Source of the DNA: Cenococcum geophilum
Taxonomy: Eukaryota
NCBI GenBank assembly: GCA_050273025.1
Contig: CP158635.1
Location: 11,904,001-11,968,000, forward strand
Length of the DNA: 64,000 bases
Direction of reading: 5' to 3'
Shown: positions 13,930 through 54,969 of the stretch, in pieces
How the letters are laid out: each line of letters begins with the position of its first letter
Position numbering within the stretch: the stretch's first letter is position 1
Notes under the pieces: model-generated
Told to the model about the DNA's origin: nothing
What the model saw: only the letters and a program-made list of their open reading frames with translations
Database searches by the model: none
Position numbers and translations under genes: made by a program

Positions 13930-16900
13930 TCCTTGACAAGAAATCTATAATTAGGTAATTATATCTAGCCTAGATTAATCGCCGCCTCTATTAAATTTAC
14001 CTTACGTATTACGGCACTGACCTAACGCATACTGTTTCATACTATCTCGTACTATTCCCTACTATTGGCTAGCCCACTACTAGCGACTTAGCGGCCGGCC
14101 CTACTATTTATATATAATACCCCCTTTCCACCTTCTTTCCCTCTTTATACTATAACGTAGTTATTTAGTCTACTTCATTGCAGCACTGTGACAGTTTGTG
14201 GTATCTTCAATTTACGCCCCGTCGCGATTACTAATTCCCTATACCCTAGCCAATTAACCTCCGCCCCAGAGCAATCGCGACCTATGCGCGCCTCTGCTGA
14301 AACTAACACGTCCCTAATATAGTCCTAGAATAATCCTTAGTTTTTACCTAGCGCCTAGATGGGCGATATTAACGACGCCGAAATGGCCGAAACTTAGAAC
14401 CCCCGCGACGTTTTTATAGACCTATTTATAGAGATATACCCTAATATTACGTGGACAATCCGCCGCTCCCTACTGTACCCTAAGACCTTTAAGCCTAGTA
14501 AAGCTTACCTTACCCTTATTAACTATACTAATAAGTTCTTTAATAATATTAAAGTAGGACTATAGTGCATATATAATATAAACACCACCAATAAGAAAGC
14601 TAACAAAAACCTTAGTGCCCTTATCGCTTCCTAGATAGGAACTATTAACTCCTAGGTAGAGACTATTACTATTCTAAAACAATTAACCCCTATAATAACA
14701 GTAGTAACCTAGCAGAAAAAACGGAGATTTAAAGACCCGCTAATATTTAGCGGAAAAGGCACCCCGCTAGAATAATAAGCTAATTTCAAGACCTAGTATA
14801 TTAAGATTAAGGGAATCTTTAACTAGGACTAGGACTACTTTAACACAATTTAGTCCCAGATCCTTTATATCTCGGATATGCTAGAGGACAAGGCCTATAA
14901 GTTTATTAAGTAGGGCTTAGAGCTTATATATAAGAACCCAAATAACATATCTGCGTGGAAATGGCCTACTAAGGAAGATATGCTTAAAGACCTTACTACC
15001 TACTATAAGGTCCTTGATATAACCCAGGTCGTAAAGAATAAGCTTAACCATTTCCCCTAAGGCGAGCGTAATTACTAGTCCTGGAAGGGAGAGCTTAATA
15101 AGCTAATAGTCCGCGCTAAGAAGACAAATAAATAAAAGGTGGACCTACTTTAAAAGTTTATCTCTCTAAAGATAGAAGAGCTGGTACTTAGACTGGCCTA
15201 TGAAATTAACGACAGCGACTATATAGGTTGGAGTAAGCAGATGGATATATTCGCTAAGAACCTCGCAAACTATACACACTAAGCCAACCTTAAGAAGAAC
15301 GCTAACTACCGCCTACCTGCCTAAGCCCCTGCCCCTATATTAACCCCAACCCTAGTAGTAACTAGAGAACCTATAGACCTTAATAGAATCTTAGACACGG
15401 AGCATAAGCGCCGCGTTAATAATAGACTATGCCTTATCTGTGGCCTGCCTAGCCATTAAAAGGATGCCTATAACCCCGCCAAGATAGTAAACCCAGTCCT
15501 AATGCCACCCTATCAAACGATATAAATAAATAACCGCGGACACGGCGATTATGGAGTCTATTATAGACGCGGCGACTGCGGAGCCTATTATAGCTATAGC
15601 GGACAACCCCCCCCCTTTAACCCTACGGCTTAGTTACTCTAAACTATGCCCTATATAGGAGCCCAACCCGTTAATAACGCCTAGTATTAGTGACTTCGCG
15701 CTAGCGAATATAAACACGGCCACATTATTAGCGAGGTATTATCTTCCTATACCCCGACTGAAACAGAGATAGATACCGCTAGCTAGACGGACACTGGACC
15801 ATCCTACTAAAACAGCCCCGTACCCTAGTTGTTAAAAGGTAAACCCTTAAACTAAGTTGCGCCTAAGGGTCTAAACTATATAAGAAGGAAGATAAGAAGA
15901 TTAGGTCCCTGTTACTAGATTAATTAGTCCTTTCTATTAGTAAACTACTACTTAATCTTAGATTAGCAAATAGTAATAAGAAATTAATCCTTATTTAAAC
16001 CCAACTCTCCTTATTATATAACCTATACCCCTAAATTTATATTAATATAGTAAGCCTAGTGGACTCCGGTAATACTGTAATGGCATTTACTAATATAGAG
16101 TTTATTATAAGAAAGTATAACGTTATAACTAAGAAGCTACTAGCACCTAGGCTACTGCGCCTTATAGATAGTATCCTAACTTCACTTATTACGGACTACT
16201 TTACCGCCTAAATATTAATCGGCCTCTATACTAAAGCTATGCTCTTTTTTATTACTAAACTCTTACCCACTACCCTAATTATCCTAGGCATGCCCTAGCT
16301 TTAGAAGTATAAGCCCCGTCCCAGCTTTAGGAAACTTAAAATCCGCTTTAACTTAGACTACTACTCTAGGCACTACCTTCTATAGGGGATAGCTAACGTT
16401 AGTAAGGACGCCCTATATAGATACTTAGCACTACTAAGCCTAGTGCCTAGGACTATATATAAAGCCTTAATAGTAGAAGACATTCCTAATAAAGGGGAGC
16501 CTATATAGCTGCAAAGAAACGAGATAGTAGAAGACTGGACTAACCTAATACTTAAGACTAAAATAATAGGCTAGCCAGCCCTACTAAGACTAAGGAAAAA
16601 GGTCCGCTTCGCGCCGCTACTATTAAGAAACTAACCCTAACCTAGGCACTATTTAAACCCCAGCCGCCTAGCCTAATACCTAGAACTAAGCTATATACTA
16701 TATACATACACTATAGCTCGCGTTATAGTAAGGACTGGCTATAGAACTACTAAAACCTAGATAATAGAAACCGCGCCACCGCAACGCCTAACCTTACACC
16801 CGTCTCCTACGCGTACCGTATAAAGCCACCACCTCATTTCCGCCCCTCTAGGCTAACTAAGCTATACTAGCCTAGCTATAGCACCGGAGAGCTAGATACG

Positions 16901-19900
16901 CCCTAACCTAGACGATATTAAATGCACCTATACTATTAATTTTACCCAGTTTTATAAGTAAAAAGACGTAAAGGTGATAAGGATCTATATAGTGGAGCTA
17001 GTAGAACTAGTTAAATAAGATAAGCACTGATAGCTGCTTAAAGAGCTGCCTATAGGCCTAATAGAAGTACCAAACCTATTAGAAAGGTTTTTCCGCCGGC
17101 TGGTAGAAGGCAACTATATAATAAAGGAAGCCTGTAAAGCGCTCCCCCCCTATTTCTATAACTTCCTTAAGATAAATCTAAAAACTAAACCCAAGCTTTT
17201 ATATTGGAAGATAGTTAACACTAATGTTAAAAAATTCTTAAAAGGCAAACCAGGATTAACCCGCGAAGATATTTTATAACGCCTACTAAAGGAGTTTAGT
17301 AAATATATTAAGCACTTCCTCCCTAAAAATATAAATAAGCTGCCCCCTTACCAACCATAGGACTATAAAATTGAGATTACCCCCAGAAACTAGGCCCCGT
17401 ACTATAAAAATAGACTACTCTTACCTACTAAACTTAGGTATATAAAGAAGTGGATTAATAAGATACTAGATAAGGGTTTTATCCGCAAATTAACCTTATT
17501 AGCTGCCGTACTACTCCTCCTCACTGCTAAGCCTAGCGGCGGTATATAAATCTGCTATAACTACTAAGGCCTAAATATAGTTACTATTAAGAATCGATAC
17601 CCACTGCTACTAATCCGCGAGACACTTAACGCACTTTGTAGCGCTAAGTACTTTACTAAACTTAATATAATTGCTGTATTTAACTGGATCTGGATTGCGG
17701 AGGGCTATAAGTAGCTTATAGCATTTATTACCCGGTTCGGACTCTATAAGATACTAGTTATACTATTTAGCCTCTATAACGCACCCGCTATATTTTAGAA
17801 CTATATTAACTATATTCTATATAACGCCCTTAATAATTACTACACTACCTACCTTAACGATATCCTTATCTTTTCTAAAATACGCGCCAAGTATATTAAG
17901 CATGTAAATGAAGTCATCTAAAGACTTGGCAATACTAGACTTTAGATTAATATTAATAAGTTTAAGTTCTACTCTACTAAAACAAAATACCTCGGCTTAA
18001 TTATCTTAACTAATGGTATAACTATAGATCCTAAGAAGATATAGGCCTTATAGGAATAAAAGGACCTAATATTAATTAAAGAACTATAACAATTTCTCGG
18101 CTTTACGAACTTCTACTGATGATTTATCTAAGGCTACTCTGCTATTGCTATACCTATAACAAAACTTCTAAAGAAGGATATTAGATAGCTATAGGGACTA
18201 GAATAAGCCAAATCGTTTAAGGCCTTTAAGGGAGCCTTTACTTTAGTACTAGTACTAGCATACTATAACTATATGAAGAAAACAGTGGTAGAGATAGATG
18301 TATTAAATTAGGCTTCCGGCGGAGTCCTTTCCCAATATAATAATAATAGAAAATTAAGACTGGTTGTATTCTTCTCCGTAAAGTACTCCGCGCTAGAATA
18401 TAACTATAAAATTTATAACAAAGAACTCCTAGCTATTGTTAAGGCTTTAAAGAAATAGCGTCCTAAGCTATAAGGGACTAAGGAGCCGTTTAAAATCATT
18501 ACTGACTACAAAAACCTATAGACGTTTATAACTACTAAGTAGCTAAACTAGCGCTAAGTCTAGTGGGTAGAGTTCCTTTTATAGTTTAACTTTATAATTA
18601 TATATAGACCTAGCAGTAAAGCTACGCTCCCTAACGCCCTAAGCTGGCTACTAGAAATAAGGCCTAAGGACGCTAATAATAAACACCTCCGCCACTAAGC
18701 CTAAGTCGTTATACTACCCTAGAAAGTTAACCCTATAATCTTAGAAGAATTACTATATAAGTCCCATAACTCTAATAACGCGGAGTTTATAGCCGCTCTA
18801 GACCCCAAAATAGCTAAAAAGTTACTAGATGAGTTAATCCGGCTAAGATACTAGAAAAACGAACTCGTAAGAGATATAGTGGCAGCCCTACGTGATTAGA
18901 AAGCTCGCCGTTAGCTAAAGAAAATTAGGAAATTACTCTATTGCGATAAGTTAGAATATAGTATTATTAACGGATAGATCTACTTCTGCTAACGTCTCTT
19001 TGTCCCTAATGCCCTAGACCTCCACCTAGAAGTTACCTATCGCTTTTATAGCAGTGGCCCCGCTAGTCACCCTAGCTAGGTTAAGACTTTTAACCTCTTA
19101 AACCGAATATACTGGTAGCTAGGAATCTCCTAGTTTATGGCTACCTTCGTTAAAGACTATGCCCTATACTTTCGCACTAAGACCCTTTATTCTGCCCCGC
19201 CCGGTTTCCTAAAGCCACTAAAATTACCTACCCGCCTATGGACCGATATCTTAATTAATTATATTATAACGCTACTAGTATACTAACGCTATAGCAAGGT
19301 ATATAAATATATCCTTATTATTATAGACCGCCTAACTAAAATATAATACCTTATTCTAGTAATAGGACTCTTAATAGAGGAGTTAGTTAATGGCTTTATT
19401 AATAATATATATAAGCTCTACGGTACACTAAGTATAATTATCTCCAATTATAGCATATAATTTATTAGCGACTTCTGGCGACAACTAAGTAAACGCCTTA
19501 AAATAATCTTGCGATTAAGCTTAGCCTAATACCTAGAAACAAACGGCTAAACTAAAATTATTAACGCCGCCGTAAATAAATATCTTTATGCTTTTGTTAG
19601 CTTTATATAGGACGACTAGGTTAACTACCTACCGCTTACTAAGTTTGCTACAAATAACTAAGTTAACGAGAGTATAGGCATCTCCCCGTTTTTTGCAAAC
19701 TATAGCTTTAACCCTCGCCTTAAAATTAAGCCTGCTAGCCCCTACCTACCGACACTATTAGTATAAGTAAAGAAGGAGTTCTTCCGCGTAAACTCTATGG
19801 CTAACCGCTTTAAGCGGATATTAATATAGCTTAAGGCCCTAGCCTGGATTTTATAGTAACGCTATAAAGATAATACTAATACCCATAGGGATAAGAGCGC

Positions 19901-21050
19901 GTTATTCTATAAAGGTAATATAGTTATGGTTAGCTTAGAAAATATAAAGATAAATAGATTTAAGAAGAAATAGGACGATAAATAGGACGGCCTATACCCC
20001 GTACTCGCAGTATACTAAGGGGTAGTTATAGTAGACCTCCCGGACTATATCTAAGTAAATAAATCCTTTTATATATTTAAGGTCCGCCTCTAAGCTATTA
20101 AAGAGATCCCTAGCTAAGCAAATATTAATACTATAGAGCGCCGTAATATACAAGGACAAGTGGTAGAGAGAGATAATAACGGCAATATAGAAGATAAATG
20201 GGAGTTTAAAAAAATCCTTAATGTACACGATAAAGACCCCTAGGGCCTAACTTATGAGATTAAATGGAAATATTATAAGGATACAACCTAGCAGCTAGAG
20301 GAAGACCTAAAGGGTTGCGAATAAGCTGTATAGCGCTTTTATAAGCAACACCTTAAGAAGCTAGAACCCCCAGACTGGGCACGAGATAAGGAAAAGTCAT
20401 ACTAAGGTCGCGGCCGACTACCGCATTAAAATTTGTGGTGGTTAAGATGTTATAGAACTTTAACTAGCGGTTAAAGTTATCTAATTGGCTAAATTCTTGC
20501 TAAGAAACGCCACACGGACCAATTTGGGTGGTGGTGTGGAGTTCTACCGACCTTACTCACTAAACTGACTAATTAGGATTTTCTATACCCGGCATAAAAA
20601 ATCGCCATTGGCTCGGTTAAGGGCGGTAAGCAAAACTGATATCTTTGTAGTAGAAAATAGGCAACCCTATACACTGCCTATTTTTAAGTTATCTATTTAG
20701 TTTGGGGACTAAACCGTCTAGGGGAGAGGAGTACTGTCACAGCACTGACCTAATGTATACTATTTCATACTATCTTGTACTGTTCCCTACTGTTGGCTAG
20801 CCCACCACTAGCGACTTAGCGGCCGGCCCTACTATTTATATATAATACCCCCTTTCCACCTTCTTCCCCTCTTTATACCACAACGTAGTTATTTAGTCTA
20901 CTTTATTGCAGCACTGTAACACTACGCGTAACGACAACTACTTTAAAAGCTTAAATATCTTACTAGTAGGCGATTTCTATTAGCTTCCCCCTATAGGTTA
21001 GGCGGCCTTATATAACAATCTACCTACTAGCCCGTTAGATTCTATCCTTT
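13929..21050 (+). pseudogene. PIF1-like (Helitron-type) helicase fragment, split by Gypsy B (pieces 13929-14006 and 20927-~21050)
   Basis: ILDEKSMIG..LAWIDRRLHQIYPT before the LTR continues in frame as RNDNYF..LNILLVGDFYQLPP.GQAALY after it (PIF1 motifs II and III). Confidence 0.8.
14007..20921 (+). mobile_element. Ty3/Gypsy chromovirus B, full length, RIP-inactivated
   Basis: 187-bp LTRs 14007-14193 and 20735-20921. TSD ttacg/ctacg (one C>T). PPT ggggagaggagtac. Gag from ~14359 with zinc knuckle ~15429, protease LVDSG ~16060, RT YLDDILIFS ~17850, RNase H ~18290, integrase ~19050-19720, chromodomain WEFEKIL..YEIKWK..TWQ ~20199-20378. Confidence 0.96.
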
Positions 21051-22662: not shown

Positions 22663-25600
22663 TAGTGCTTTTATTAATATTTAATACTTATTAATAAGGA
22701 TTTAGTATTTTTTAATAATACTATAATAATATGTTATTAAATTAAATATAAATATCTATATTATTATTATTAGGAATATAGGCAAGTTGCCGTCACGTAA
22801 GACAAGTTGCCGTCACGTGTCGCCGCGGCACTAGCGTGGTGAGGAGCCTTAAGCTCCTCGCCCTTCCTTAAGCAGAAAAGAACATAGAATAAAAATAATT
22901 ATTATACTATCTATAAACCGTAGCTACGTGATATTACCTTATATAACCAACACTAATTAGTAGTTAACTTTACTGTTATACTATAGAACAGCTAGGTATT
23001 CTACTAAGAAGAGATAAGCTACTATACTAGTGCTACTTATACTAGAGGAAGCTATCTTTTAAGGTTAAAACTGGTTCTAAACCTTAAATAGAACTCTTCT
23101 ATAAATCTAAGGATTTAAAGGCTAGAACTGGTCCTAAGCCTTTTCTAGATTATAGATTTTTACGTCTATTACGCAAAATAATACGCTTTATAAGTCTTTA
23201 CAATTTAAGGCTAGAACTAGTTTTAAGCCCTATAATCGCAAATATATATTATAAACGCGTATTAAATAACAATCCCTATACTAATAACACTTCCCTCCCT
23301 CTAAAAACATGGCTACGCCTACCTTAAACGACTGGGAAGACTCCTTACTACTAGGGGTAACTACGTATACGAAATTTATTAATAAAAATTGGGACGAATT
23401 TACTATTAATATAATAATTTATACCGTAAAATAAGTTAATAGCTTTCTCCTACACTATATCCTATTTTACTAAAGTAGATACTACGCCGATTTATAACTG
23501 TGGGAATATTTTAGGGAGGATTTTGTAGGATGGACCGCTGATACTTAGACACTTAGTAATATTAATATTGTTTAGGATTTCTAAGACTTCCTTTATAGAA
23601 ATGGGGTATATATTACTAGGAATAGTAACCTAATTGCTAGCAATATTTAGGCCGTTATTATTAGTATAGAAGAACTAGTATAGACGGAAGCTAAGATTAT
23701 ATATTAACTACGGAAACCTAAAACTAACCCATATTCTTTAGAAGGTAACTTTAATTTATATTAAAAACCCTAAAACGCTAATCCCCTACCTAGAGGTACT
23801 CTCCTACTAGGAGGTACTCTTCTACCTAGAGGTGCTCTTCCGCTACCCCCTTTGCTACCTTTACCCCCTCTATTCTAGCTAACCGGTAAGCCTCTACTAT
23901 AAGAAGTTACAAATCTGATAAAGGTATATTTGGACAAAAAAAAGAAGTTTAAAGGAGAACTGTATAATATACTTAGAGCAAAACTATAGGTCTTTTATAA
24001 CTGTTGTAATAAGGTTAAAATTTAATACTATTAGTACTACTACGCTTTCTTTATTATATTAAAAGGATAGGCAGTAATATTCTATTATAACTATATTATA
24101 GGTAAAAACTATAACTTTAATATAATGCTTTAGCTTACTAAAGCTTACTTTAAAACTAATAAGAATTGCTAACTTTATATATCTAAATGGCGGGAAACTA
24201 TATTTTAAAGAGTTATTACTTCTAACCTAATAAAGAGTTATTTAGAGTACCTTTAACTACTCTTTAATAAACTTTAGAAAATCTAATATAGCCTTACTAA
24301 AACTTACTAAAATAAGAACAGCCTAAGGGACTAAGTTATTTTAGTATGCTATAGCGTTTCTAAGTATAACTTAGCGCTATATAAACCTATAGATATATTT
24401 AAAGGAGTATATGCTAAGCTACGCTTTATTATAGGTACTATAATACGAATATAAGAATCTTAATAGTTTTATACTAAAAACCTTACCTAACTAAGTATTC
24501 CTAACTAATATAATTATAACTAGACTAATTAAATATATAATAGCCGTAGTAGGGAATATGGAAGAGGGTATAATTAATATTAACTATAAGGTAATTATAG
24601 AGGTCCTTATAGAGGTTTATTTTAAAGTAATTACTAAAAAAAGTGCTACGTTTATAAGAAGCTAAATTACTAGTTAACTAGATACTCCCTTAATAAGCAA
24701 AAAGAGGTATATAATAAGTTCCGTTAGAGTATAAGAAATGTTAAAAATTATAAGGTTATTATAGCCTACTTTTAAAGCTTCCTAGTTTAATATAGAGGCG
24801 TAAAAGATCTTAAGGGTAAGGTTAATAAGGTCGAATAGCTCCTTATAGATATAGAAATTAAGGACTACTCCCTTAACCAATACTTTACTAAGTATAGTAA
24901 GGTAGATAGTATATAAACTATTACCGTTCTTAATAATTAATCTACACTCCATTTTATTATAAAATTAAATATCTTTAATAAGCTAAAGGAGAGTTTTATA
25001 TTTTCCTTTAATAATAGATACTCGGCGTATATCTTTTATAGTATTATACCGGATATAGGAGCCGTAAAAGTATCTATAGTAGGAAAACCTTAAATTTAAG
25101 CTCTTTAGCAGCTGGATAGCTCTATTTAGATTAACTAATTAATAATAGGCTAATATATAATTCGCTTTAGTAAAGGTACTACGATTTCTCTTAGTATAAT
25201 TAGGGTCTAAACCCCCTTAGGGTATATTACTTTCCATATTATTCCTATAAACACTCCATTTCTATTTTATATTAAAGATATAAATAAGTTAGGTATTAGG
25301 CTTAATAACCTTAAGAATATACTTATTTAAGAAGATAATTAGGTACCTATTATATATAAGTAGGGTTACCCCTAGTTACTCCTTTATTAACTAGAAAAGA
25401 GTGTTACTTAAAGCTACTTAATTAAGTTAGAATTACGCTAACTATACTATCGTTTTAGCTACCTATCCGTTTATTAATTGCTTAGGGTTCTTTAGTAAGT
25501 AGGCTATAAAGTTAAGGTTAAGGCAATTAAGCATCTTATAAAGTACTACTATTATTACTAAATAAACTAAAAGTCCCCTGGCCGATTTAAGTTCACCCTT

Positions 25601-28600
25601 AAGGATAACTATAACTTTAACTTTTATATTATTATTAATGTTATATATCTTAGCGGCAAGCTAGTGCTTTAAGTTATTAACTTCTTAACCTCCTTTTAAG
25701 CCGCGCGTTTCTTAAAAGATATATTAGCTAGAAACGCATAGGATACCCTTTAATTATACTAGATTAATATCTATTTAGAACCCCCTAATTAAATTATTTA
25801 TAATATAGGAAAGAACTTCTTATCTATAGAGTTCTAATAACAGATAAAGGTAATAGTAATTAAGGTTAAGGAAGTCCCCGTTAAGGCATATAATAGTATT
25901 AAAAAAGTGGAATAATATTACCCGCCATTACGCCGCGTATATAAGATTATTTTTTTAAAACTAAAGAATGCTAGTAAAGAACTTCCTTTATAAATAGCTG
26001 TTAAAACTATTAATAATTCCGCTAGCCCGGATAGACTTATACCTATATTACTAGTCTTTAGCGCCTACCCTTAAATAACTAATAATTTTTTACTATTTCC
26101 CTTTATTATAAAATAAGCTAAGGCTATTTATAAGGCAATAAAGGAGGTGTAACGTCTTTACGCTATACGCTAGGTTAATAACGCACTAGGAATAAGAAAT
26201 AGCCTAAATACCTTAACTACGCTTAATCTGCCACTTTAGTCTAAAGTATGTATATAGTGTAAAAAGGGAGGATAGTTAGGCCTATACTAACTTATTGCAA
26301 TTAATAGCTAAATTTATACTATTTAGATGCCTTACAGACCCACTTAATTCCATTTAACTATTATTAAGCCTTACTATAAAGATAATAATTCTAAGCCTTT
26401 ATAGGATGCCCTAAAAGATGCCCTAAAGGAAAACTATAATTAACGTGCTTTAAAAGGCGACTATAATTATAGTAGATATACCACAACTATAACGCGGTAG
26501 AGGTCGCCCAAAGGGATTATAAAATCGCTAATATCTTATTAATTTTAAAGAACAATTTGTTGCCGCTATTAGGAATAAAGTTAAGTTATTAATAGCCTTT
26601 ATAACAGCTAAAGAGAAGGCTAACTTTAAGCTCGCAAAACAGCTCTAAAAGGAAGGTTATATTATAACCCTAGGAGCTCCTTTCTAAGCATCTAATAAGT
26701 AGAAGATTGACGGTCTTATTATAAGAGGAGTTTTTAAATTTAAAAAGTATAACCCTACTAAGTTTAATAAAGTTCGCATCTTTAAGTTAAGGATAGTTAA
26801 TAAGATTAAGGGCAAAGCTACTAACGCCCTATTTAAGAAATTAAGGCTTATTATCTAAGGTTATAATAATAATAGTAAAGAGATAATTCTTATATAATCC
26901 CCTATAATTTAATAAGCTAGTTAGCAAGTTATTATTATATTAGCTTTCTTCTTAATAAAGAATAGAATAGCGGTTTATTTATAAAATATTACTTAAGCCT
27001 ACACCTAATTAGAGATGCACCTTTAGCGCTTAATATTGGCATACCTTTTAAAGCAAATTCACCACTAGTATCCTAAAAATACAATTATAGTTATGCTTAA
27101 GCCATTATATAGAATTATAGAGGTAGGAACTTATTAGTAGGCTACCTATAGTAAGCACTATAAAGAGAAGCTTTTAATAACTACTTCTATATTTAATCCC
27201 TACTTCCTTATTATAACTATAGGAACCCTATTTAGAATTATTGGTATATAAACTAATAATATAATTATCTTAGGAGACGACTAATTCTTAGCTCTTAAAG
27301 AGGATAAGCTAGTAAAGGCAAATCTTATAGTAAAGCTAAAGGAAAAGCTTAATTTAATAACACTATTACTTTTTAATAGATGCATTCTTTCCCTAAATAA
27401 GGATTCTATTGCTTTACGCTAAAAGGGTTAAGGTAAGAAGATTAACGTTATTAACGTTAATTCCCTAAAGTAAGGATATATAGAGCAACGCGCTTATAGA
27501 GCTTATATTACTTTTATCTATTAACCCAAGGCTTTATTTAATCTCTTTATTACCACTTAACACTAGGAACTAACTAAGAATAACGTTCTTACCCTAAATA
27601 AACGTCTTTCCTAGTAAATAAACTATCTTAATTAGGGACTACTTTATATGCCTATTAATCTTCCTACTACTAAGCTCTTTATATTTATTAATAGATCGTT
27701 TATAAATAATAAAGATTTTAGCTCCTAGTTAGGATATAAGATTATTATTACAAATAAATTTACTAGAGAGAATAACTTTATAATCTATAGTAATTTTATC
27801 TATTAGAGCTTAACTAAGAGTAAGCGCGTTACCTAAAGTATTTTGGCGTTAGAGATATATAAAATAGTTAGCGGAGTTAATATAGCAATTATAATTAGAA
27901 CTACCTTAAAGATAATTATAGATCGACTTAAACTTCCTATTATTCCTATAATTATATATACTAACTTATATTCCCTCTATAAGTGTTTAGTTAAGCTTAG
28001 TACTATAAAGAAAAAGCGCCTTATAATTAATATTATGGTACTTTAATAATTCTATAAGCGTTAAGAACTCTTTAAGATTTAATAAATTAATAGCTAAGAT
28101 AACCTAGTAGATATAATAATAAAGGCAAACCCAAATAAGGCACTAGAGACGTTAATTAATATAAATACTCTATATATATAAGTTAAAGGTCAGATTAAAA
28201 GGAAGTCCTTAGAAATTTCTTAGTTATATAAGGTCTTAAGATATCTAGAAACTTTAACCGGCGGTTAAAGTTATCTAATTAGTTAGATTTTCTTACTAAG
28301 ACTTTTTTAGAGGGGGGAATATAACATTTTATAAACCCTAACTTAACCTAGCTAATTAGGATTTTCTATCCCCGGGATAGAAAATCGCTATTAGCTTACT
28401 TACTACTAGCGCCTTAGCGGCTCTTTAAATAAGATATTTACCTATAACTCCTAAGTAAGAAAGCACTATATGCTAAGAGGTAAATTTTAGGACAGTAAGA
28501 CTTATATTATAATAGCAATAGTAAGTAAGGAGGATTAATATTTATTATGCTAGTTAAGCGGTATATATATATAGATAGCAACCGTAAAAGAAAAGTTGCT

Positions 28601-30924: not shown

Positions 30925-33900
30925 TGTTGGACTTATAAGGGGATATCACGTAGCTACGGTTCGTAGATAGTATGATAATTGTTATTATATATTATAAAAG
31001 GGGAAGGGCGAGGAACTTAAGGTTCCTCGCTACGGTAGTGTCGCGGCAACACGTGATAACACGTAATAACCGCTTGCCCCATTCCCAACACTGGCAACTC
31101 TTCTTTTATAGTTGCCATCTATATACACTTATAGATTGCCACTATACAAGGATATAAAGCTAAGGAGAAGAAAAAGGGGAGGGAGGATATTAGGGTTAAC
31201 GTAAATATAAAGGGGCCACTAAGGCGCTAGTGGTAAGCGAGCTAATAGCGATTTTCTATACCGGGCATAGAAAATCCTAATTGGCTAGATCAATGAATGG
31301 CGTCGGCAGAACTCCACACCGCCACCTAAATTAATTAGGCGTAGCGCTCTTAGTAAGAATCTAACTAATTAGACAACTTTAACCGGCGGTTAAAGTTCTA
31401 TAAGATCTTAACTTCTTTAAATTTCCCTCTTAACCTAACCTTTAACTTATATATATAGAGTATTTATATTAATGAATATCTCTAGTACCTTATTTAGGTT
31501 TGCCTTTATTATTACATCTACCGGGTTATTTTAGCCATTAATTTATTAAATCTTAAAGAGTTCTTAACGCTTATAGGATTACTGAAGTGCTATAATATTA
31601 ATTATAAGGCGCTTCTCCTTTATGGTGCCAAGCTTAACTAAATACTTATAGAGGGAGTATAAGTTAGTGCACACGATTGTAGGAATAGCGGGAATTTTAA
31701 GTTAATCCGTAATTATCTTAAGGGTAGTTCTAATTATAATTGCTATATTAACTCCGCTAACTATTTTATATATCTCTAACGCTAGAACGCTTTAAGTAAT
31801 ATATTTACTCTTAGTTAAGCTCTAATAGATAAGGTTACTATAGATTATAAAGTTATTCTCTCTAGTAGATTTGTTTATAATAATAATCTTATATCCTAAC
31901 TAGGAGCTAAAATCTTTATTATTAGTAAACGATCTATTAATAAACACGAAGATCTTAGCGGTAGGGAGATTAATAGGCATATAGAGTAGCCCTCGGTTAA
32001 GATAATTTATCTACTAGAAAAGGCGCTTATTTAGAGCAAGAACGTTATCCTTAGTTAGTTTCTAGTATTAGGCGGCAATAAAGAGATTAAAGAAAGCCTT
32101 AGGTTAATAGATAGAAGCAATATAAGCCCCGCGAGCGCGTTGTTCCACATATTCTTATTTTAGAGAATTAACGTTAATAACGTTAATCTTCTTACCTTAA
32201 CCCTTCTGGCGTAAAGCAATGGAATCCTTATTTATGGAAAGGATACATTTATTAAAGAGTAATAGTGTTATTAAATTAAGTCTTTCCTTTGGCTTTGCTA
32301 TAAGATTTGCCTTTACTAGCTTATCTTCTTTAAGAGCTAAGAATTAGTCGTCTCCTAAGATAATTATATTATTAGTTTATATGCCGACGATTCTAAATAG
32401 AGTTCCTATAGTTATAATAAGGAAGTAGGGATCGAATATAGAAGTAGTTATTAAAAGCTTTTCTTTATAGTGCTTGCTGTAAGTAGCCTACTAATAGGTT
32501 CCTACCTCTGCGATTCCGTATAATGGCTTAAGGACAACTATAATTGTATCTTTAGGATATTAGTGGCGAATTTGCTCTAGAAGATATGTAAGTATTAAGC
32601 GCTAAAGGCACGTCTCTAATTAGGTATAGGCCTAAGTAATATCTCGCAAATAAACTGCTATTCCGTTCTTTATTAAGGAGGGAGCTAGTGCAATAATAAC
32701 TCGCTAACTAGCTCGTTAAATTATAGGAAATTACATAAGAATTATCTCTTTACTATTATTATTGTAACCTTAGATAATAAGCCTTAATTTCTTAAATAGG
32801 GCGTTAGTAGCCTTACCCTTAATCTCGTTAACCATTCTTAACTTAAAGATGCGAATTCCATTAAACTTAGTAGGGTTATACTTCTTAAATTTAAAAACTC
32901 CTCTTGCGATAAGACCGTCGATCTCCCGCTTATTAGATGCTTAGAAGGGGGCTTCTGGAGTTATAATACAACCTTCCTTTTAGAGCTGTTTTGCGAGCTT
33001 AAAGTCAGCCTTCTCTTTAGCTGTTATAAAGGCCATCGACAGCTCGGCTCTACTCTTAATAGCGGCAATAAATTGCTCTTCGAAATTAATAAGATATTAG
33101 CGATTTCGTGATCCCTTCGGGCGGCCTCTACCGCGTCGTGGTTGCGGTACATCTACTACGATTATATTAGGATTGTAGTCGCCTTCTAGGGCACGCTGAT
33201 CGTGGTTCTCCTCTGGGGCATCTTCTGGGGTATTTTCTGGGGTATCTTTTAGGATATCCTGCAGAGGCTCGGAACTGTCATCTTTATAGTAGGGCTTAAT
33301 AACAGTTAAACGGAATTAGGTGGGTCCGTGAGGCATTATCCTCCCTTTTTGCGCCATACGCGTACCTTAGATTGGAGCGGCAGATTGAGCGTAGTTAAGG
33401 TGTTTAGGCCATTTCTTATTCCTAGTACATCGTTAACCTGGCGCGTAGCGTAGAGACGTTACACCTCTTTTATTGCTTTACGAATAGCCTCGGCTTATTA
33501 TATAATAGAGGGAGATAGTGGAGAATTATTAGTTATTTAAGGGTAGGCGCTAAAGACTAGCAACGTAGGTATAAGCCTATCTAGACTAGCGGAGTCGTTA
33601 ATAGCCTTAATAGCCATCTATAAGATAAGCTCTTTACTAGCGTCCTTTAGTTCTAAAGAAATAATCTTATACGCTTGGCGTAGTGGCGTATAATATCGTT
33701 CTACTTTTCTGACGCTACTATGTGCCTTAATAGGGACTTCCTTAACCTTAATTGCTATTGCTTTTGTTTATTACCAAAACTCTATAAATAAGAAGTTCCT
33801 TTCTATATTATAAATGACTTAATCCAGGGGTCCTAGATAGACATTAATCCAGTATAATTAAAGAGTATCCTATGCGTTTCTAGTTAATATATCCTTTAGG

Positions 33901-40200: not shown

Positions 40201-43200
40201 GTTTCTTAAAAGATATATTAGCCAGAAATGCATAGGAGACCCTTTAATTATGCTAGATTAATATCTATTTAGGACCCCCTAATTAAATCGTCTATAATAT
40301 AGGAAAGAACTTTTTATCTATAGAGTTTTAATAATAGATAAAGGTAATAGTAATTAAGGTTAAGGAAGTCCCTAATAAGGCATATAATAGTATTAAAAAA
40401 GTAGAACAATGTTACGCGCTATTACGCCATATATATAAGATTATCTCCTTAAAACTAAAAAATGCTAGTAAAAAACTTACCTTATAAATAGCTGTTAAAG
40501 CTATTAATAATTCCGCTAGCCTAGATAGACTTATACCTATATTACTAGTCTTTAGCGCCTACCCTTAAATAACTAACAATTCTTTACTATTTCCCTCTAT
40601 TATATAATAAGTTAAGGCTATTCGCAAGGCAATAAAGAAGATATAACGTCTCTACGCTATACGCTAGGTTAACGACGTACTAGGAATAAGAAATAGCCTA
40701 AATACCTTAACTACGCTTAATCTGCTACTTTAGTCTAAGGTATACATATAGCGTAAAAAGGGAGAATGGTTAGGCCTACACTAACTTATTATAATTAATA
40801 GTTAAACTTATACTATTTAGATGCCTTATAGACCTACTTAATTCCGTTTAACTATTATTAAGCCTTATTATAAAGATAATAATTCTAAGCCTTTATAGGA
40901 TGCCCTAGAAGATGCCCTAGAAGAAAACTACGGTTAATATACTCTAAAAGGCGACTATAATCCCAATATAATTGTAGTAGATGCGCTATAACTATAACGC
41001 GGCAGAGGTCGCCTAAAGGAATTACGAAATCGCTAATATCTTATTAATTTTAAAGAATAATTTATTACCGCCATTAAGAATAAAGTTAAGTTATTAATAG
41101 CCTTTATAATAGCTAAGGAGAAGGCTAACTTTAAACTCGTAAAATAGCTTTAAAAGAAAGGTTATATTATAACTCTAGGAGCTCCTTTCTAAGCATCTAA
41201 TAAGTAGGAGATTAATAGTCTTATTATAAGAGGAGTCTTTAAATTTAAGAAGTATAACCTTACTAAGTTTAATGGAGTTCGCATCTTTAAGTTAAGGATA
41301 GTTAATAAGATTAAGGGTAAAGCTACTAACGCCCTATTTAAGAAATTAAGGCTTATTATCTAAGGCTACAATAACAATAATAAGGAGGTAATTCTTATAT
41401 AGTCTTCTATAATTTAACAAGCTAGTTAGTAAGTTATTATTACGCTAGCTTCCTCTTTAATAAAGAATAGAATAGCGGTTTATTTATAAGATATTACTTA
41501 AGCCTATACCCAATTAGAGACGCACCTTTAGCGCTTAATATTAGCATACCTTTTAGAGTAAATTCGCCACCAGTATCCTAAAGATATAATTATAGTTATA
41601 CTTAAGCCATTATATAGGATCGCAGAGGTAGGAACTTACTAGTAGGCTACCTATAGCAAGCGCTATAAAGAGAAGCTTTTAATAACTACTTCTATATTTA
41701 ATCCCTACTTCCTTATTATAACTATAGGAACTCCATTTAGAATTATTGGTATATAAACTAATAATATAATTATCTTAGGAAACGATTAATTCTTAGCTCT
41801 TAAAGAAGACGAGCTAGTAAAGGTAAATCTTATAGCAAAGCCAAAGGAAAAGCTTAGTTTAATAACACTATTACTCTTTAATAAATGCATCCTCTCCCTA
41901 AACAAGGATTCTATTACTCTGCGCTAAAAGGGTTAAGGTAAGAAGATTAACGTTATTAACGCTAATTCTCTAAAGTAAGGATATATAGAGTAACGCGCTT
42001 ATAAAGCTTATATTGCTTCTATCTATTAACCTAAGGCTTTATTTAATCTTTCTATTACCGCCTAATACTAGAAACTAACTAAGGATAATATCCTTGCCCT
42101 AAATAAGCGTCTTTTCTAGCAAATAAACCATTTTAATTAGGGACTACTCTATATGCCTATTAATCTTCCTACCGCTAAGCTCTTTATATTTATTAATGGA
42201 TTATTTATAAATAATAATGATTTTAGCTCCTAGTTAGGATATAAGATTATTATCACAAAAAAATTTACTTAAGAGAATAACTTTATAATCTATAGCAATC
42301 TTATCTATTAGAGCTTAATTAAGAGTAAGCGCGTTACCTAAAGTATTTTAGCGTTAGAGATATATAGAATAGTTAGCGAAGTTAATATAGTAATTGCAAT
42401 TAGAACTACCCTAAAGATAATTATAGATTAACTTAAACTTCCTATTATCCCTATAATTATATACACCGACTTATATTCCCTCTATAAGTATTTAGTTAAG
42501 CTTGGTACTATAAAGGAGAAGCGCCTTATAATTAATATTATAGCACTTTAGTAATTCTATAAGCGTTAAAAACTCTTTAAGATTTAATAAATTAATAGCT
42601 AAGATAACCTAGTAGATGTAATAATAAAGGCGAACCCAAACAAGGCACTAGAGACGTTTATTAACACGAATACTCTATATATATAAGTTAAAGGTTAGGT
42701 TAAAAGGGAGTCCTTAGAAATTTCTTAGTTACGTAAAGTCTTAAGATATTTAGGAACTTTAACTAGCGGTTAAAGTTATCTAATTAGTTAAATTCTCTTG
42801 CTAAGACTTTTTAGAGTATAATATTCTATAAACCCTAACTTAACCTAGCTAATTAGAATTTTTCATCCCTGGGATAGAAAATCGCTATTAGCTTACTTAC
42901 TATTAGCGCCTTAGCGGCCCTCTAAATAAGATATCTACCTATAACTCCTAAGTAAGAAAGTACTACGTGCTAAGAGGCAAATTTTGGGATAGTGAGACTT
43001 ATATTATAATAGTAATAGTAAGTAAAAAGGATTAATATTTGCTACGCTAGGTAAGCGGTATATATATATATAGATAGCAACCATAAAAGAAGAGTTACTA
43101 GTGTTGGGAATAAAGATAAGTGGTTACTATATAAGGCAAATTGCTATTATAGGTGGCAAGTTGCCATTACATGCGGCAAGTTGCCGTCACGTGTCGCCGC

Positions 43201-52419: not shown

Positions 52420-54210
52420 TCTTAATTCTATATCGCAAAAAGCCTGCGATTATTCTACTAAGTAAAATACTTATACTAGCACGTTCCGGGAAAGCTATAA
52501 TAGAGGCTTATTTTAATCTTTTTTTAGTACTTCTTACTACCTTATAGAGACTTTCTATAAAGGGCTAAGTGCCTACTATAGAGGTGAAGCGGAAGGTTGG
52601 TCTAATATATTAGGCAGCTAGTTTATAATCTCCTCTTTAGGGGTTAGTGGCTAAGATTAACTTTCTACTAATACTGGCTGCTAAGGTTATAGACTTAATT
52701 AATTCTACGGGTTGTTACTATAAAGTTAACTGAGATAAAGGAGAGATATTAAGAGACCCTCTAGAAATTAAATCTCTAGGAGGTAACGATAGCTTTAGGA
52801 GAGTCCTCTATATACGTCTATAAGCGTTTTCCTGCTTATATAAGCAGATTCTTTTTATTTAGTCTCTATAATAATTACCTTAGTAGTGCCAGATTTTATA
52901 GGTTATAACAACTATTCTTACTACTAGCTTAAGGGAGTTAGGGTAGCGTTCTTATTAAAGGAAGGCCTACTAAAAAGTTCTAGTAGCTATTATAAGCGCC
53001 TAGAGGTAGACTTAATGGCTATAGCAATAGCGGTAGGAATAGAAGTAGACTCTATAGATTGTTATAGGGGGAAATAAGGTAGTAGTATATTTTCTGCAGT
53101 TATGGCACTTATATATATAGGAGTTTAACTAGTACGCTCCTTATAAATTAGTAAATTACTTTCTTTTAGGGAGAACATAGAGTTAAAATAAGAAGTAATA
53201 TTAGGTTAACGTCCTCGCACCTAGGGCATTAAACCTCTTCTTAGTAGTAAAATGTAGCCCTATAGCACCCGTAAAATAGGCTCCCTACTAAGATATATAC
53301 TTTGACGTCTACTAGTTTACTATTAGCGGATTGCGTAGCGGACGAGTTTAAGGCCTATACTTGCTTAATATTAAATATTAGGGAATATAAAGAACGACTT
53401 AAAGCAAAATGTAAACTATGACGTAAATAAGGTTTCTTTTTAGCATTCAGAACTCTAGAGACTAAAAAGGGGCTACCTAGTCCGAGGCCTATTTTTGGGC
53501 TCTATATAAGAGGGATTAAAAAGCGGCTTCTATTAGCTATAATTAGATACCTATACTCTAAGGGTTAGCTTTACTATCCTACGCGAGGACTATATTCTAA
53601 ACTGTGCCCCTAGGATATCTAGAGCAATTATATAAATATGGTTCCTCTTATACTTATATTAGTAAGTTCTATAACAATAAAAAAGGCTATATATTTACTT
53701 GCTATTGTATAAGTTTTATATTTTCTACTAGGCTAGGTCTAGCTTAAGATTAAAGCCTTAATAGCATCGCCCTAGCTATAACTATATTCGCTAGTAAACC
53801 CGCATTAACTCCTTTTTATCTTTTACCCTTAGTAAATGGCTTATACCCCTATATAGAGGTAACCGTTTAAATCTAGATTAGTAATTTATTAAGCTCTAGT
53901 ATTATTAGCTTTACTAATTTCGCTATTATATCTAGCTCTTATAGGCCCGAAAGTACCTCTCTCTTAAACTTAACCTTAATAGTGCATTATAGTCCTTATT
54001 AAACGGATAGATCTCCTACTATATGCTCCGCAACCTCTTAGTCTAATATTACTATAATCCTACTAAACACTACCAACTTATCCTTTAACTTTAATGCAAC
54101 CGCTAAACTTTAGTTTAATAGTTTATAGCGCCACGCCAACAAACCCCTATTTTTAATTATTTGTTTAATATATATTAATAGGGTAGTTTTAGGAAGTTAC
54201 TCTATTTATC

Positions 54211-54308
54211 TGGTTTTCTAGTAGATGGTTTCTAGTAGATGGTTTTTAGTAGATGGTTTTTAGTAGATGGTTTTTAGTAGATGGTTTTTGGTAGATGGTT
54301 TCTGGTTA
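54211..54308. repeat. 14-bp tandem repeat (tggtttYtRgtaga) x7
   Basis: Seven near-identical head-to-tail units without spacers. Confidence 0.9.
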
Positions 54309-54969
54309 ATAGTTTAACTGAAATTCTTTAGTTTACTGCTTTGGGTTATATACTAAATAGAGTTTTTTGCCACGGCAATAGATTAAATATAGTGCTATAT
54401 AATAACAAGAACTATAATCGAATTCTATTAATATAATATATAATTAATGTTTTAATAAAACCTAGCTCTAATTTTTCCTCTAGCTGTTTTAATTAAGACT
54501 ACTTTTTTATAACTGCGGGGGGAGTGCGTTTAGAGGGGTGCTTAGAGCTTTTTTTAGAGTCTGCTCCCTTTAAGGAAAGGTAAACAAGTTTAGCTAGCTT
54601 AAAATTATCCTACTTTATTATAGTTGCAATAAACAAGGCGTGATTAAATGTATAGTTATAATAAAACGTCTGCATAGTAAAGATAACAAATATTAATATT
54701 CTTGTTGCTATGTCTTATCCTATATAGCTAGTGGGTTAGCCTATAAGAGCTATATAGCCTTATAATTAGCTATCTTACAAAGCGCGGGATTATAAAAAAG
54801 GATTAGGCATAATTGGCACTAATAAGCGCTTAGCACGGCTATTTAATAAAATAATAGCTAAGCGGAGCTAGAGCTAGTAATTATTATATAAAACAACTAT
54901 GTAATAAAAGTCCCTATTATTTCTTATGCCAGTTTTTAAATATTCTTTTATTCTTTATATATTAACACC

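What the first reader, a model, noticed from the sequence alone, without database searches (positions are those of the whole stretch)
20441..20616. Twin-palindrome module shared by the 3' UTRs of a Gypsy and a Copia family
Seen: a ~155-180-bp block lies just after the pol stop in Gypsy B (20441-20616) and in all three Copia copies (28236-28397, 31238-31412 minus, 42741-42893), always in the element's sense orientation. It has two dyads, aactttaacc-ggc-ggttaaagtt and gattttctat-N7-atagaaaatc, each next to ATTGG/CCAAT-like words. The centre of dyad 2 is ccc-c-ggg in Copia-1 but de-RIPs to gcc-c-ggc in Gypsy B and Copia-2. That is a paired transversion RIP cannot make. The loop of dyad 1 is inverted in Copia-2. 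The spacer between the dyads (ggtggYggtgtggagttctRccgac) is shared by Gypsy B and Copia-2 but not by Copia-1 or Copia-3. Established: Ty1/Copia and Ty3/Gypsy are deeply diverged superfamilies whose UTRs normally share no homology. Inference: a selected cis-acting module (RNA structure, protein-binding dyad, or small hitch-hiking element) that has moved between unrelated retrotransposons.
Basis: partly seen in the sequence, partly recalled or inferred. Interest (0 to 1): 0.8.

Follow-up and report, generated by a model that had tools for sequence, protein, structure and literature searches.

The report
Borrowed LTR promoters in retrotransposon tails
The shared stretch is real: it is a patchwork of two promoter pieces taken from the end repeats of two other jumping-gene families of this fungus, and unrelated jumping genes have passed these pieces to one another in their tail regions, probably as an optional gene-control switch, though that role is untested.

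Summary
The block is real, but it is two separable pieces of foreign LTR DNA. Piece A (dyad 1, CCAAT box, TGCCAAG word) is the inverted inner U3 of the 180-bp LTR of an unrelated Ty1/Copia family (Z), where it lies 22 bp before a TATA box. Piece B (dyad 2 between two CCAAT boxes) is the 5' part of the 229-bp LTR of a Gypsy family (Y). Both sources are true LTR elements with paired LTRs and 5-bp TSDs. A follows pol in five Gypsy lineages (25-37% integrase identity) and in the window's GalEa Copia; there are 1692 exact dyad-1 sites genome-wide. Copia-1/3 carry a captured Gypsy 3' end (UTR, PPT run, LTR start). The pieces occur inverted, apart or missing, so they are optional. The 'loop inversion' is a free centre base, and the paired transversion is two alleles shuffled among families; no RNA covariation remains once RIP is allowed for. 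Best reading: a DNA-level enhancer or antisense-promoter cassette spread by recombination; function untested, neutral debris not excluded. The scan noted this module at least ten times before on other DNA of this genome; the two named source elements are what I add.

The parts
14007..20921 (+). Gypsy B, RIP-mutated chromodomain-type Ty3/Gypsy element; LTRs about 14007-14193 and 20735-20921
   Evidence: LTR pair 93%; RVT_1, RT_RNaseH in one frame; chromodomain read by eye from the translation (recalled motif)
20427..20429 (+). Last in-frame stop of pol before the block (an earlier TAA at 20403-20405 may be RIP-born)
   Evidence: sequence and translation; which stop is original is inferred
20445..20504 (-). 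Piece A: inner U3 of a Z-type Copia LTR, lying antisense to Gypsy B; lacks the LTR's TATA box
   Evidence: alignment to L310 LTR; purine/pyrimidine class identical across 10 families at -2..+40 except the centre; Copia-2 copy vs Z LTR 63 bp, 1 transversion, E 3e-12
20456..20478 (.). Dyad 1: 11-bp arms around one free base; core CCG-N-CGG
20480..20488 (-). CCAAT box of piece A (reads on the minus strand; RIP-mutated here)
   Evidence: 19 of 30 Z LTRs keep the unmutated word
20497..20504 (+). TGCCAAG-class word, kept at variable spacing (+42 to +46) in all 10 families
   Evidence: reading it as a PacC-type site is recalled, not tested
20505..20568 (+). Spacer shared by Gypsy B, Gypsy C and the Copia-2 subtype, found reversed in F4; origin not traced
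   Evidence: no significant match to LTR starts
20569..20612 (+). Piece B: dyad 2 (20577-20603) between two inward-facing CCAAT words; 5' part of a Y-type Gypsy LTR
   Evidence: 52 bp, 86.5%, 1 transversion, E 1e-12 vs L376 LTR
20613..20653 (+). Tail shared with a Copia-2 subtype (L065, L134) and, reversed, with Gypsy F4
   Evidence: 20429-20647 vs L065: 10 transversions in 218; 20524-20653 vs F4 reversed: 4 in 128
20720..20731 (+). Polypurine tract of Gypsy B
22953..22961 (+). CHSeq1 of the GalEa Conserved Hairpin Site after the 5' LTR of Copia-1
   Evidence: definition in PMC5445492 section 10
28202..28306 (+). Copia-1: segment matching the 3' UTR of Gypsy F113, with piece A (dyad 1 at 28250-28272)
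   Evidence: 105 bp, 3 transversions, E 2.5e-26
28303..28319 (+). Copia-1: T-run plus purine run like the PPT of the F113/F061/Y Gypsy clade
   Evidence: 41 of 56 Copia-1-type copies keep it
28335..28424 (+). Copia-1: Y-type LTR piece with dyad 2 (28360-28386)
   Evidence: 90 bp, 3 transversions, E 9e-28; spacer test p=0.006
31128..31424 (-). Copia-2: Gypsy B/C-type A+spacer+B (31240-31424; dyad 1 31375-31397, dyad 2 31250-31276) running on into 166 bp of Y-type LTR (31128-31294)
   Evidence: 8 transversions in 184 vs Gypsy B type; E 2e-26 vs L376 LTR
42712..42922 (+). Copia-3: F113-type segment (42712-42811, dyad 1 42755-42777) and Y-type LTR piece (42821-42922, dyad 2 about 42857-42883)
   Evidence: 1 transversion in 100; 3 in 102

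Best explanation
The block is a patchwork of two LTR promoter (U3) fragments that entered retrotransposon 3' UTRs and were then passed between families. SHOWN: piece A is the inverted inner U3 of a Ty1/Copia LTR (family Z) and piece B the 5' part of a Gypsy LTR (family Y); both sit after pol in many unrelated families, in mosaic combinations, in either orientation, and are optional. INFERRED (about 0.85): the first entry was a nested insertion cut down to a solo LTR or a fragment, or capture of another element's 3' end, and later spread was by template switching between co-packaged RNAs or by ectopic recombination, the pieces themselves giving the shared homology. INFERRED (about 0.55): the pieces are kept because they still act as DNA, as a cluster of host transcription-factor sites (three CCAAT boxes, CCG-N-CGG dyads of Zn2Cys6 type, a TGCCAAG word) that opens chromatin and boosts the nearby 3' LTR or fires antisense into pol.
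For: Z: L310 has 96.7% identical LTRs, a CCCAG TSD, RVT_2 1e-47, rve and gag; order in the LTR is E-box, TGCCAAG word (reverse), CCAAT, dyad 1, 22 bp, TATATAG. Y: L376 has 96.9% identical 229-bp LTRs, an AGTTG TSD, RVT_1 1.4e-23, B inside the LTR and no A; 8 more or less identical 5.72-kb LTR pairs among 40 hits. A whole Y-type solo LTR is fixed in the 3' UTR of another Copia family in 29 of 30 loci, which shows the entry route. Family F2 keeps a further 25-nt piece of the Z U3 (25/25, 25/25, 24/25 purine/pyrimidine matches in 3 of 3 copies against shuffled maxima of 21-23), which points from LTR to UTR. Copia-1/3 = F113 UTR + PPT run + Y LTR piece in that order. Carrier Gypsy lineages are 25-37% identical in integrase while the A core shows no transversion difference among 10 families except at the dyad centre, and indels fall between motifs. 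CCG(H)CGG is the PrtT Zn2Cys6 motif, and TCACGTGAT footprints drove a reporter in A. niger (PMC8419926, passages).
Against: No activity was measured. RNA data were uninformative: 6 partial reads in the one raw run, no start sites, and contigs without strand. Module-less subfamilies exist and multiplied (F113 L184, L315, L132; F4 L186, L233; Copia L234). The A copies in UTRs lack the TATA box. Invariance at offsets 0..+31 is partly built in by the search pattern, and low divergence could reflect recent transfer rather than selection. The Gypsy B/Copia-2 spacer could not be traced to an LTR (best p=0.02 of 16 tests). Z LTRs are few next to UTR copies (0 of 50 unselected sites), so the reverse direction for A is not excluded. 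Factor names rest on motif likeness only.
Confidence: 0.6

Rival explanations
1. Same origin, no function: LTR debris tolerated in the only free part of the element and spread because, once shared, it is the homology through which unrelated elements recombine.
For: Pieces are optional; junctions sit at short T, C or purine runs; TATA box lost; near-zero transversion distance fits recent transfer; antisense position of A could be mere tolerance of a reversed LTR.
Against: Five deep Gypsy lineages and a Copia keep the same 50-60 bp, with changes and indels confined to positions between motifs (-7, -4, -3, +11, +41 to +45); several deletion variants of Copia-1 (A-B distance 110, 71 and shorter) keep both dyads, though these were picked by the dyad.
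Confidence: 0.25
2. The block works as folded RNA (packaging, dimerisation or export signal) in the genomic transcript.
For: Both dyads can form hairpins; 245 of 246 dyad-2 copies are complementary at the +/-3 pair; fixed place after pol.
Against: One-base centres; B and A+B occur reversed; only two alleles at +/-3, so one event is enough; a one-sided transversion at +/-7 is carried by 19 of 246 copies; dyad-1 double changes are all CG-to-TA, the RIP signature; folding z = -1.5 (14 of 200 shuffles, on a RIP-mutated copy); no Rfam family; in Z piece A lies in U3 upstream of TATA.
Confidence: 0.07
3. Reverse direction: A and B are old 3'-UTR signals, and the Z and Y LTRs picked them up when U3 was remodelled.
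For: UTR copies far outnumber LTR copies (0 of 50 unselected dyad-1 sites in an LTR); Y-clade LTRs vary in U3, and the F061 LTR has the tail but no B.
Against: F2 holds extra Z-U3 sequence next to the LTR's 5' end; Copia-2 holds 166 bp of Y LTR beyond B; a whole solo Y LTR sits in another Copia UTR; in Z the motifs stand in ordinary promoter order before TATA.
Confidence: 0.12
4. A nested MITE or the end of a Harbinger DNA transposon.
For: 10 of 126 metagenome matches are un-RIPed repeat ends that carry the same 23-mer as the window's dyad 1; G000 has 66 DDE_Tnp_4 matches.
Against: The identity is with the RIP end state; low-RIP fungal copies differ at 4 arm positions; no dyad in the 10 of 66 Harbinger loci read; no TIR/TSD pair around the block.
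Confidence: 0.02

Closest known systems
U3 diversification of the crapaud Gypsy LTR in Podospora (PMC10787394, passages read)
   Same: Filamentous ascomycete under RIP; variable U3 upstream of TATA; template switching between co-packaged RNAs and selection on promoter function are proposed; short solo LTRs escape RIP, as seen here for Z.
   Different: There the variation stays inside the LTR of one family. Here U3 pieces have left the LTR, sit in 3' UTRs and cross the Gypsy/Copia divide.
Microsimilarity-dependent sequence capture by LTR retrotransposons (PMC5131818, passages read)
   Same: Foreign RNA is copied into the element by double template switching at short similar runs, sometimes from several donors.
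   Different: The captured pieces there are host mRNAs; here they are non-coding 3' ends and LTR pieces of other retrotransposons, and A is antisense.
Antisense promoters and 3' additional ORFs of LTR retrotransposons: Grande, micropia, AtRE1, Boty brtn (PMC7264820, passages read)
   Same: Promoter activity in the 3' region pointing back into the element; nested TE insertion is named as a possible origin.
   Different: No antisense ORF or transcript is shown here, and that review found no TE source for the plant aORFs, whereas here the donors are identified.
Conserved Hairpin Site of fungal GalEa Copia (PMC5445492, passages and section 10 read)
   Same: Short palindromic non-coding motif shared between families of one species; the window's Copia are GalEa and have it.
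   Different: CHS lies right after the 5' LTR, replaces the PBS and is Copia-only; the block lies after pol, is also in Gypsy, and is LTR-derived.
ORF3 sharing among bdelloid retroelements (PMC5408684, abstract only)
   Same: Modules shared by unrelated retroelement lineages in the 3' region.
   Different: Those are protein-coding modules; this is non-coding promoter DNA.

Membership tests
LTR U3 fragment, family Z (Ty1/Copia) | Source lies in paired TG..CA direct repeats with 5-bp TSD around gag-pol | tested here: met
   L310: LTRs 96.7%, CCCAG TSD, RVT_2/rve/gag; solo LTRs with TSD L305, L336, L341
LTR U3 fragment, family Z (Ty1/Copia) | Motifs upstream of a TATA box in the LTR | tested here: met
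   27 of 30 loci parsed; CCAAT, dyad 1, 22 bp, TATA-like word
LTR U3 fragment, family Y (Ty3/Gypsy) | Source lies in paired LTRs with TSD and PPT around gag-pol | tested here: met
   L376: 96.9%, AGTTG TSD, RVT_1 1.4e-23; 5.72-kb pairs
LTR U3 promoter/enhancer | Transcription start mapped downstream; activity and factor binding | tested here: inconclusive
   6 partial raw reads, no starts; contigs carry no strand
Structured cis-acting RNA | Independent compensatory base-pair changes | tested here: not met
   dyad 1: only RIP-type double transitions; dyad 2: two alleles, plus a one-sided change in 19 of 246
Structured cis-acting RNA | Fixed orientation in the transcript | tested here: not met
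   B reversed in F4, F5, part of F2; A+B reversed in F5
Known Rfam family | Score at gathering threshold | tested here: not met
   0 in the window; best 19 bits vs 74 on low-RIP copy L296
MITE / Harbinger end | Terminal inverted repeats, TSD, free-standing copies | tested here: not met
   0 of 50 unselected and 0 of 20 low-RIP sites; none in 10 Harbinger loci
GalEa Conserved Hairpin Site | Directly after the 5' LTR, in place of a PBS | tested here: not met
   block lies after pol; the real CHSeq1 is at 22953-22961
GalEa Copia (the window's host elements) | KSRLVI, QTDD, CQPEA-type motifs, CHSeq1, RVT_2 relatives | tested here: met
   RIP-altered forms of the motifs; CHSeq1; 8 of 8 homologues with RVT_2, 4 over the cut-off

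The most novel reading that the evidence does not exclude
The LTR retrotransposons of this fungus share a common pool of portable promoter cassettes, taken from each other's LTRs and parked in the 3' UTR, where they act as a selected internal enhancer or antisense promoter that tunes expression or holds off silencing. Regulatory DNA would then move freely across the Gypsy/Copia divide while the proteins do not.
Probability: 0.35. Interest if true: 0.72.

Novelty: new variant of a known kind. Interest (0 to 1): 0.52.

Why it matters
Gypsy and Copia are treated as separate gene pools. Here at least three recent exchanges join them (F113 to Copia-1/3; Gypsy B/C with Copia-2; Y LTR into Copia), and the exchanged DNA is promoter material rather than genes. 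Naming the donors turns an unexplained palindrome into a testable claim about known factor sites. It also warns that RIP both fakes covariation (CG to TA on both arms) and hides the true motif, and that these shared pieces will blur family assignment in repeat libraries. If the pieces prove inert, the case is still a clean record of inter-superfamily recombination.

Tried and rejected
Harbinger origin: 10 of 126 metagenome matches looked like DNA-transposon ends with the same 23-mer (the label Harbinger is recalled from the end motif and ORF start, no family search was run on them); rejected because low-RIP fungal copies differ in the arms. Guess that the word after dyad 1 was CCAATTGG: 0 matches; low-RIP copies show a CCAATCAG box on the minus strand instead. 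L147 as a free Y LTR: 29 of 30 hits share both flanks, so it is embedded in a Copia UTR. Gypsy B/Copia-2 spacer as a Y LTR start: not significant. Loose A/B-like hits elsewhere in the window (7482, 7785, 11420, 40787, 39757, 46867): AT-rich noise. Direct Pfam, hhalign and PDB tests of the Copia RT gave nothing; settled through homologues. Alignment A4 held 2 of 5 rows in a wrong frame and was dropped. One search had the structure one column off; redone. Viral contigs: 0 for dyad 1, 0 confirmed loci for P0004. Link to an antisense Zn2Cys6-like gene noted earlier in this genome: no A or B in 8.2 kb around the estimated place, and the gene itself was not located. Small-share RNA runs X1-X3: contigs over dyad 2 mostly run on into unlike flanks, so they say nothing on this copy.

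Full report
Observation. The four stretches align with 73% mean column identity; Gypsy B and Copia-2 share 180 bp at 79%, E 1.5e-36. The window is RIP-mutated repeat DNA (4 ORFs of 100 aa or more; GC 25-41%). Gypsy B has RVT_1 and RT_RNaseH in one frame. The three Copia copies are one family (83-88% over 5.6-6.1 kb). They gave no Pfam hit, but a profile of three copies found 3067 proteins at E up to 0.001, and 8 of 8 long top hits scanned carry RVT_2. They show the GalEa RT/RNase H motifs in RIP-altered form and CHSeq1 after the 5' LTR (PMC5445492 section 10). In G000 the exact dyad-1 pattern has 1692 sites and dyad 2 has 739, with 0 for both controls.

Spread. I read the first 50 of the 1692 dyad-1 sites, all on contig C1; this is the only unselected sample. 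They fall into GalEa Copia 13, Gypsy B 5, Gypsy C 2, and five further families: F061 7, F113 6, F2 9, F4 6, F5 2. None stands free. Integrase identity between the five carrier Gypsy lineages (B/C, F061/F113, F2, F4, F5) is 25-37% (22 rows). Of these, 116 have the fungal flank and look RIP-mutated; those that could be assigned match the same families at 82-95%, so they do not show conservation in distant fungi.

Of 20 such loci read, 5 lie in a 180-bp TG..CA repeat and 2 in a truncated form of it. This repeat is the LTR of family Z: L310 has two LTRs at 96.7%, a CCCAG TSD, RVT_2 at 1e-47, rve and gag. In LTR sense the order is ATCACGTGAT, the TGCCAAG word reversed, GACCAATCAG, dyad 1, 22 bp, TATATAG (27 of 30 loci parsed). 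In the window's UTRs this piece lies antisense and stops short of the TATA box (Copia-2 vs Z: 63 bp, 1 transversion, E 3e-12). Family F2 keeps a further 25 nt of the Z U3, which points from LTR to UTR.

Source of piece B. B lies inside an LTR in L221 and in the solo LTR L228 (ATAAC TSD). A search of G000 with that LTR gave 40 scored hits with eight pairs 5.72 kb apart. One of them, L376, is a full Gypsy: LTRs 96.9%, AGTTG TSD, RVT_1 1.4e-23, B 35-90 bp from the LTR start, no piece A. Its integrase groups with F061/F113 (50-51%). A whole 248-bp LTR of this type is fixed right after pol in another GalEa-like Copia family (29 of 30 loci share both flanks): a nested solo LTR that was then amplified.

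Patchwork in the window. Copia-1 28202-28306 matches the F113 Gypsy UTR (3 transversions in 105). Next comes a T-run and purine run like the F113 PPT (41 of 56 copies of this type), then a Y-type LTR piece (3 in 90). This is the order UTR, PPT, LTR of a Gypsy 3' end, so Gypsy to Copia is the likely direction (inference). Copia-2 has the same pol end as Copia-1 (0 transversions in 97) but the Gypsy B/C version of the block (8 in 184) and 166 bp of Y LTR. Gypsy B 20429-20647 matches a Copia-2 subtype (10 in 218). The Gypsy B/Copia-2 spacer was not traced.

Tests of RNA structure. Over 316 distinct A sites held (197 from G000; selected by my queries, not random; 29 left unassigned), the purine/pyrimidine class is the same in all 10 families at -2..+40 except at the dyad centre (offsets 0..+31 are partly fixed by the pattern). 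The centre is C 20, A 9, G 1 in 30 Z LTRs and mixed within F4, F5, F2 and F061, so the 'loop inversion' is a free base. On 40 copies, two dyad-1 pairs show double changes, all C-G to U-A or G-C to A-U, which is what RIP does to a CpG on both arms. In 246 dyad-2 copies the +/-3 pair has two complementary alleles (126 and 119) and one exception; both alleles occur within Copia-2, Gypsy C and F4, so one event plus shuffling is enough. A one-sided change at +/-7 is carried by 19 copies. B is reversed in 17 of 27 F4, 17 of 18 F5 and 3 of 38 F2 sites. In F5 the PPT and LTR lie on the dyad-1 side and integrase points toward the block from the other side (5 of 18 sites show this; 12 had no integrase hit within the locus; 2 show an upstream hit that I read as a neighbouring element). 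Rfam gave nothing.

Optional. Among 18 element ends picked by pol away from the selected site, 9 had A and 9 did not (one counted twice); of the latter, F113 (L184, L315, L132), F4 (L186, L233) and Copia (L234) are clean module-less forms and the rest are interrupted by insertions.

How it most likely works. Entry by nested insertion or 3'-end capture, and spread by template switching or ectopic recombination, are inferred from the junctions and from known behaviour of LTR elements (PMC5131818 and PMC10787394, passages). The kept bases read as fungal factor sites. CCG-N-CGG matches the Zn2Cys6 motif CCG(H)CGG; the E-box of Z matches TCACGTGAT, whose footprints drove a minimal promoter in A. 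niger; and CBC motifs are enriched in open chromatin (PMC8419926, passages). The CCAATCAG consensus and TGCCAAG as a PacC-type site are recalled. I put about 0.55 on a DNA-level enhancer or antisense promoter and 0.25 on inert debris. Expression could not be judged: one raw RNA run laid 6 partial reads, and three contig sets are deepest over dyad 2 but from contigs with other flanks.

Literature and earlier notes. Six full-text searches (terms joining LTR retrotransposon, fungal, untranslated region, palindrome, solo LTR, antisense promoter, CCAAT, template switch, LTR swapping) listed no paper on foreign U3 pieces shared by fungal Gypsy and Copia 3' UTRs; I saw listings only for most hits, and subscription papers are not covered. 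The supplements of PMC5445492 (element tables) were not read and may bear on the GalEa 3' regions. The scan reported this module at least ten times on other windows of this genome; two notes already called it promoter-like or saw B inside an LTR. The short texts shown do not name the donor elements.

Verdict. Real, abundant and partly explained: a new variant of known LTR capture and U3 exchange, unusual in crossing superfamilies and in sitting in the 3' UTR. Interest 0.52.

Noticed in passing
L346-L374 (e.g. G000:C1:1664385-1664655): A second GalEa-like Copia family (35-41% to Copia-2 RT/RNase H) carries a whole 248-bp Gypsy solo LTR right after pol, with a near-TSD.
   Followed up: partly
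L294, L303: A repeat of at least 3 kb (90% between copies, no coding match to the references) embeds the 3' two-thirds of a Z LTR, cut off at the CCAAT box.
   Followed up: partly
L190, L177, L186, L192, L299 (family F5): Gypsy family with a 1.4-kb 3' region holding tandem repeats and the A+B block reversed relative to the element.
   Followed up: partly
L179, L191, L196, L200, L207, L222, L235, L261, L264, L273: Un-RIPed repeat ends, probably an animal Harbinger (recalled features), with a perfect 23-bp palindrome 15 bp inside the end and repeated TTAACCGG words.
   Followed up: partly
L310 (G000:C1:14049067-14054973): The Z element is inserted into a Y-related LTR and has a PBS starting GGTTATGAG, like half-tRNA-primed Copia elements (recalled); its 3' UTR has short tandem repeats and no block.
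   Followed up: no
window 20790-20851 and 14062-14123: Gypsy B's own LTR shares the tail motif that follows B in the Y LTR (62 bp, 74%, E 2e-6), so U3 pieces are shuffled between LTRs too.
   Followed up: partly
L291, L292, L302: F113 elements have the same LTR start and end but different U3 middles, like crapaud subfamilies.
   Followed up: no
L197, L201, L215, L109, L205: Piece B also occurs in further repeats without A, often after runs of TTCTGCC/GGCAGAA heptamers; families not identified.
   Followed up: no
window 18133-18272: A short contig at depth 239-354 in three RNA-type contig sets matches this part of pol and has unlike flanks.
   Followed up: no
F113, F061 and Y just before the PPT (e.g. 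L292, L376): A conserved GCCTGAGGGCAGGC word precedes the PPT; it resembles the SltA-type motif CTGCCTGAGGCA of PMC8419926.
   Followed up: no
G000, 66 places (L280-L289 read): At least two RIP-mutated DDE_Tnp_4 (Harbinger-type) families.
   Followed up: partly
window 54201-54326: Tandem array of a 14-bp unit, about 7-9 copies.
   Followed up: no
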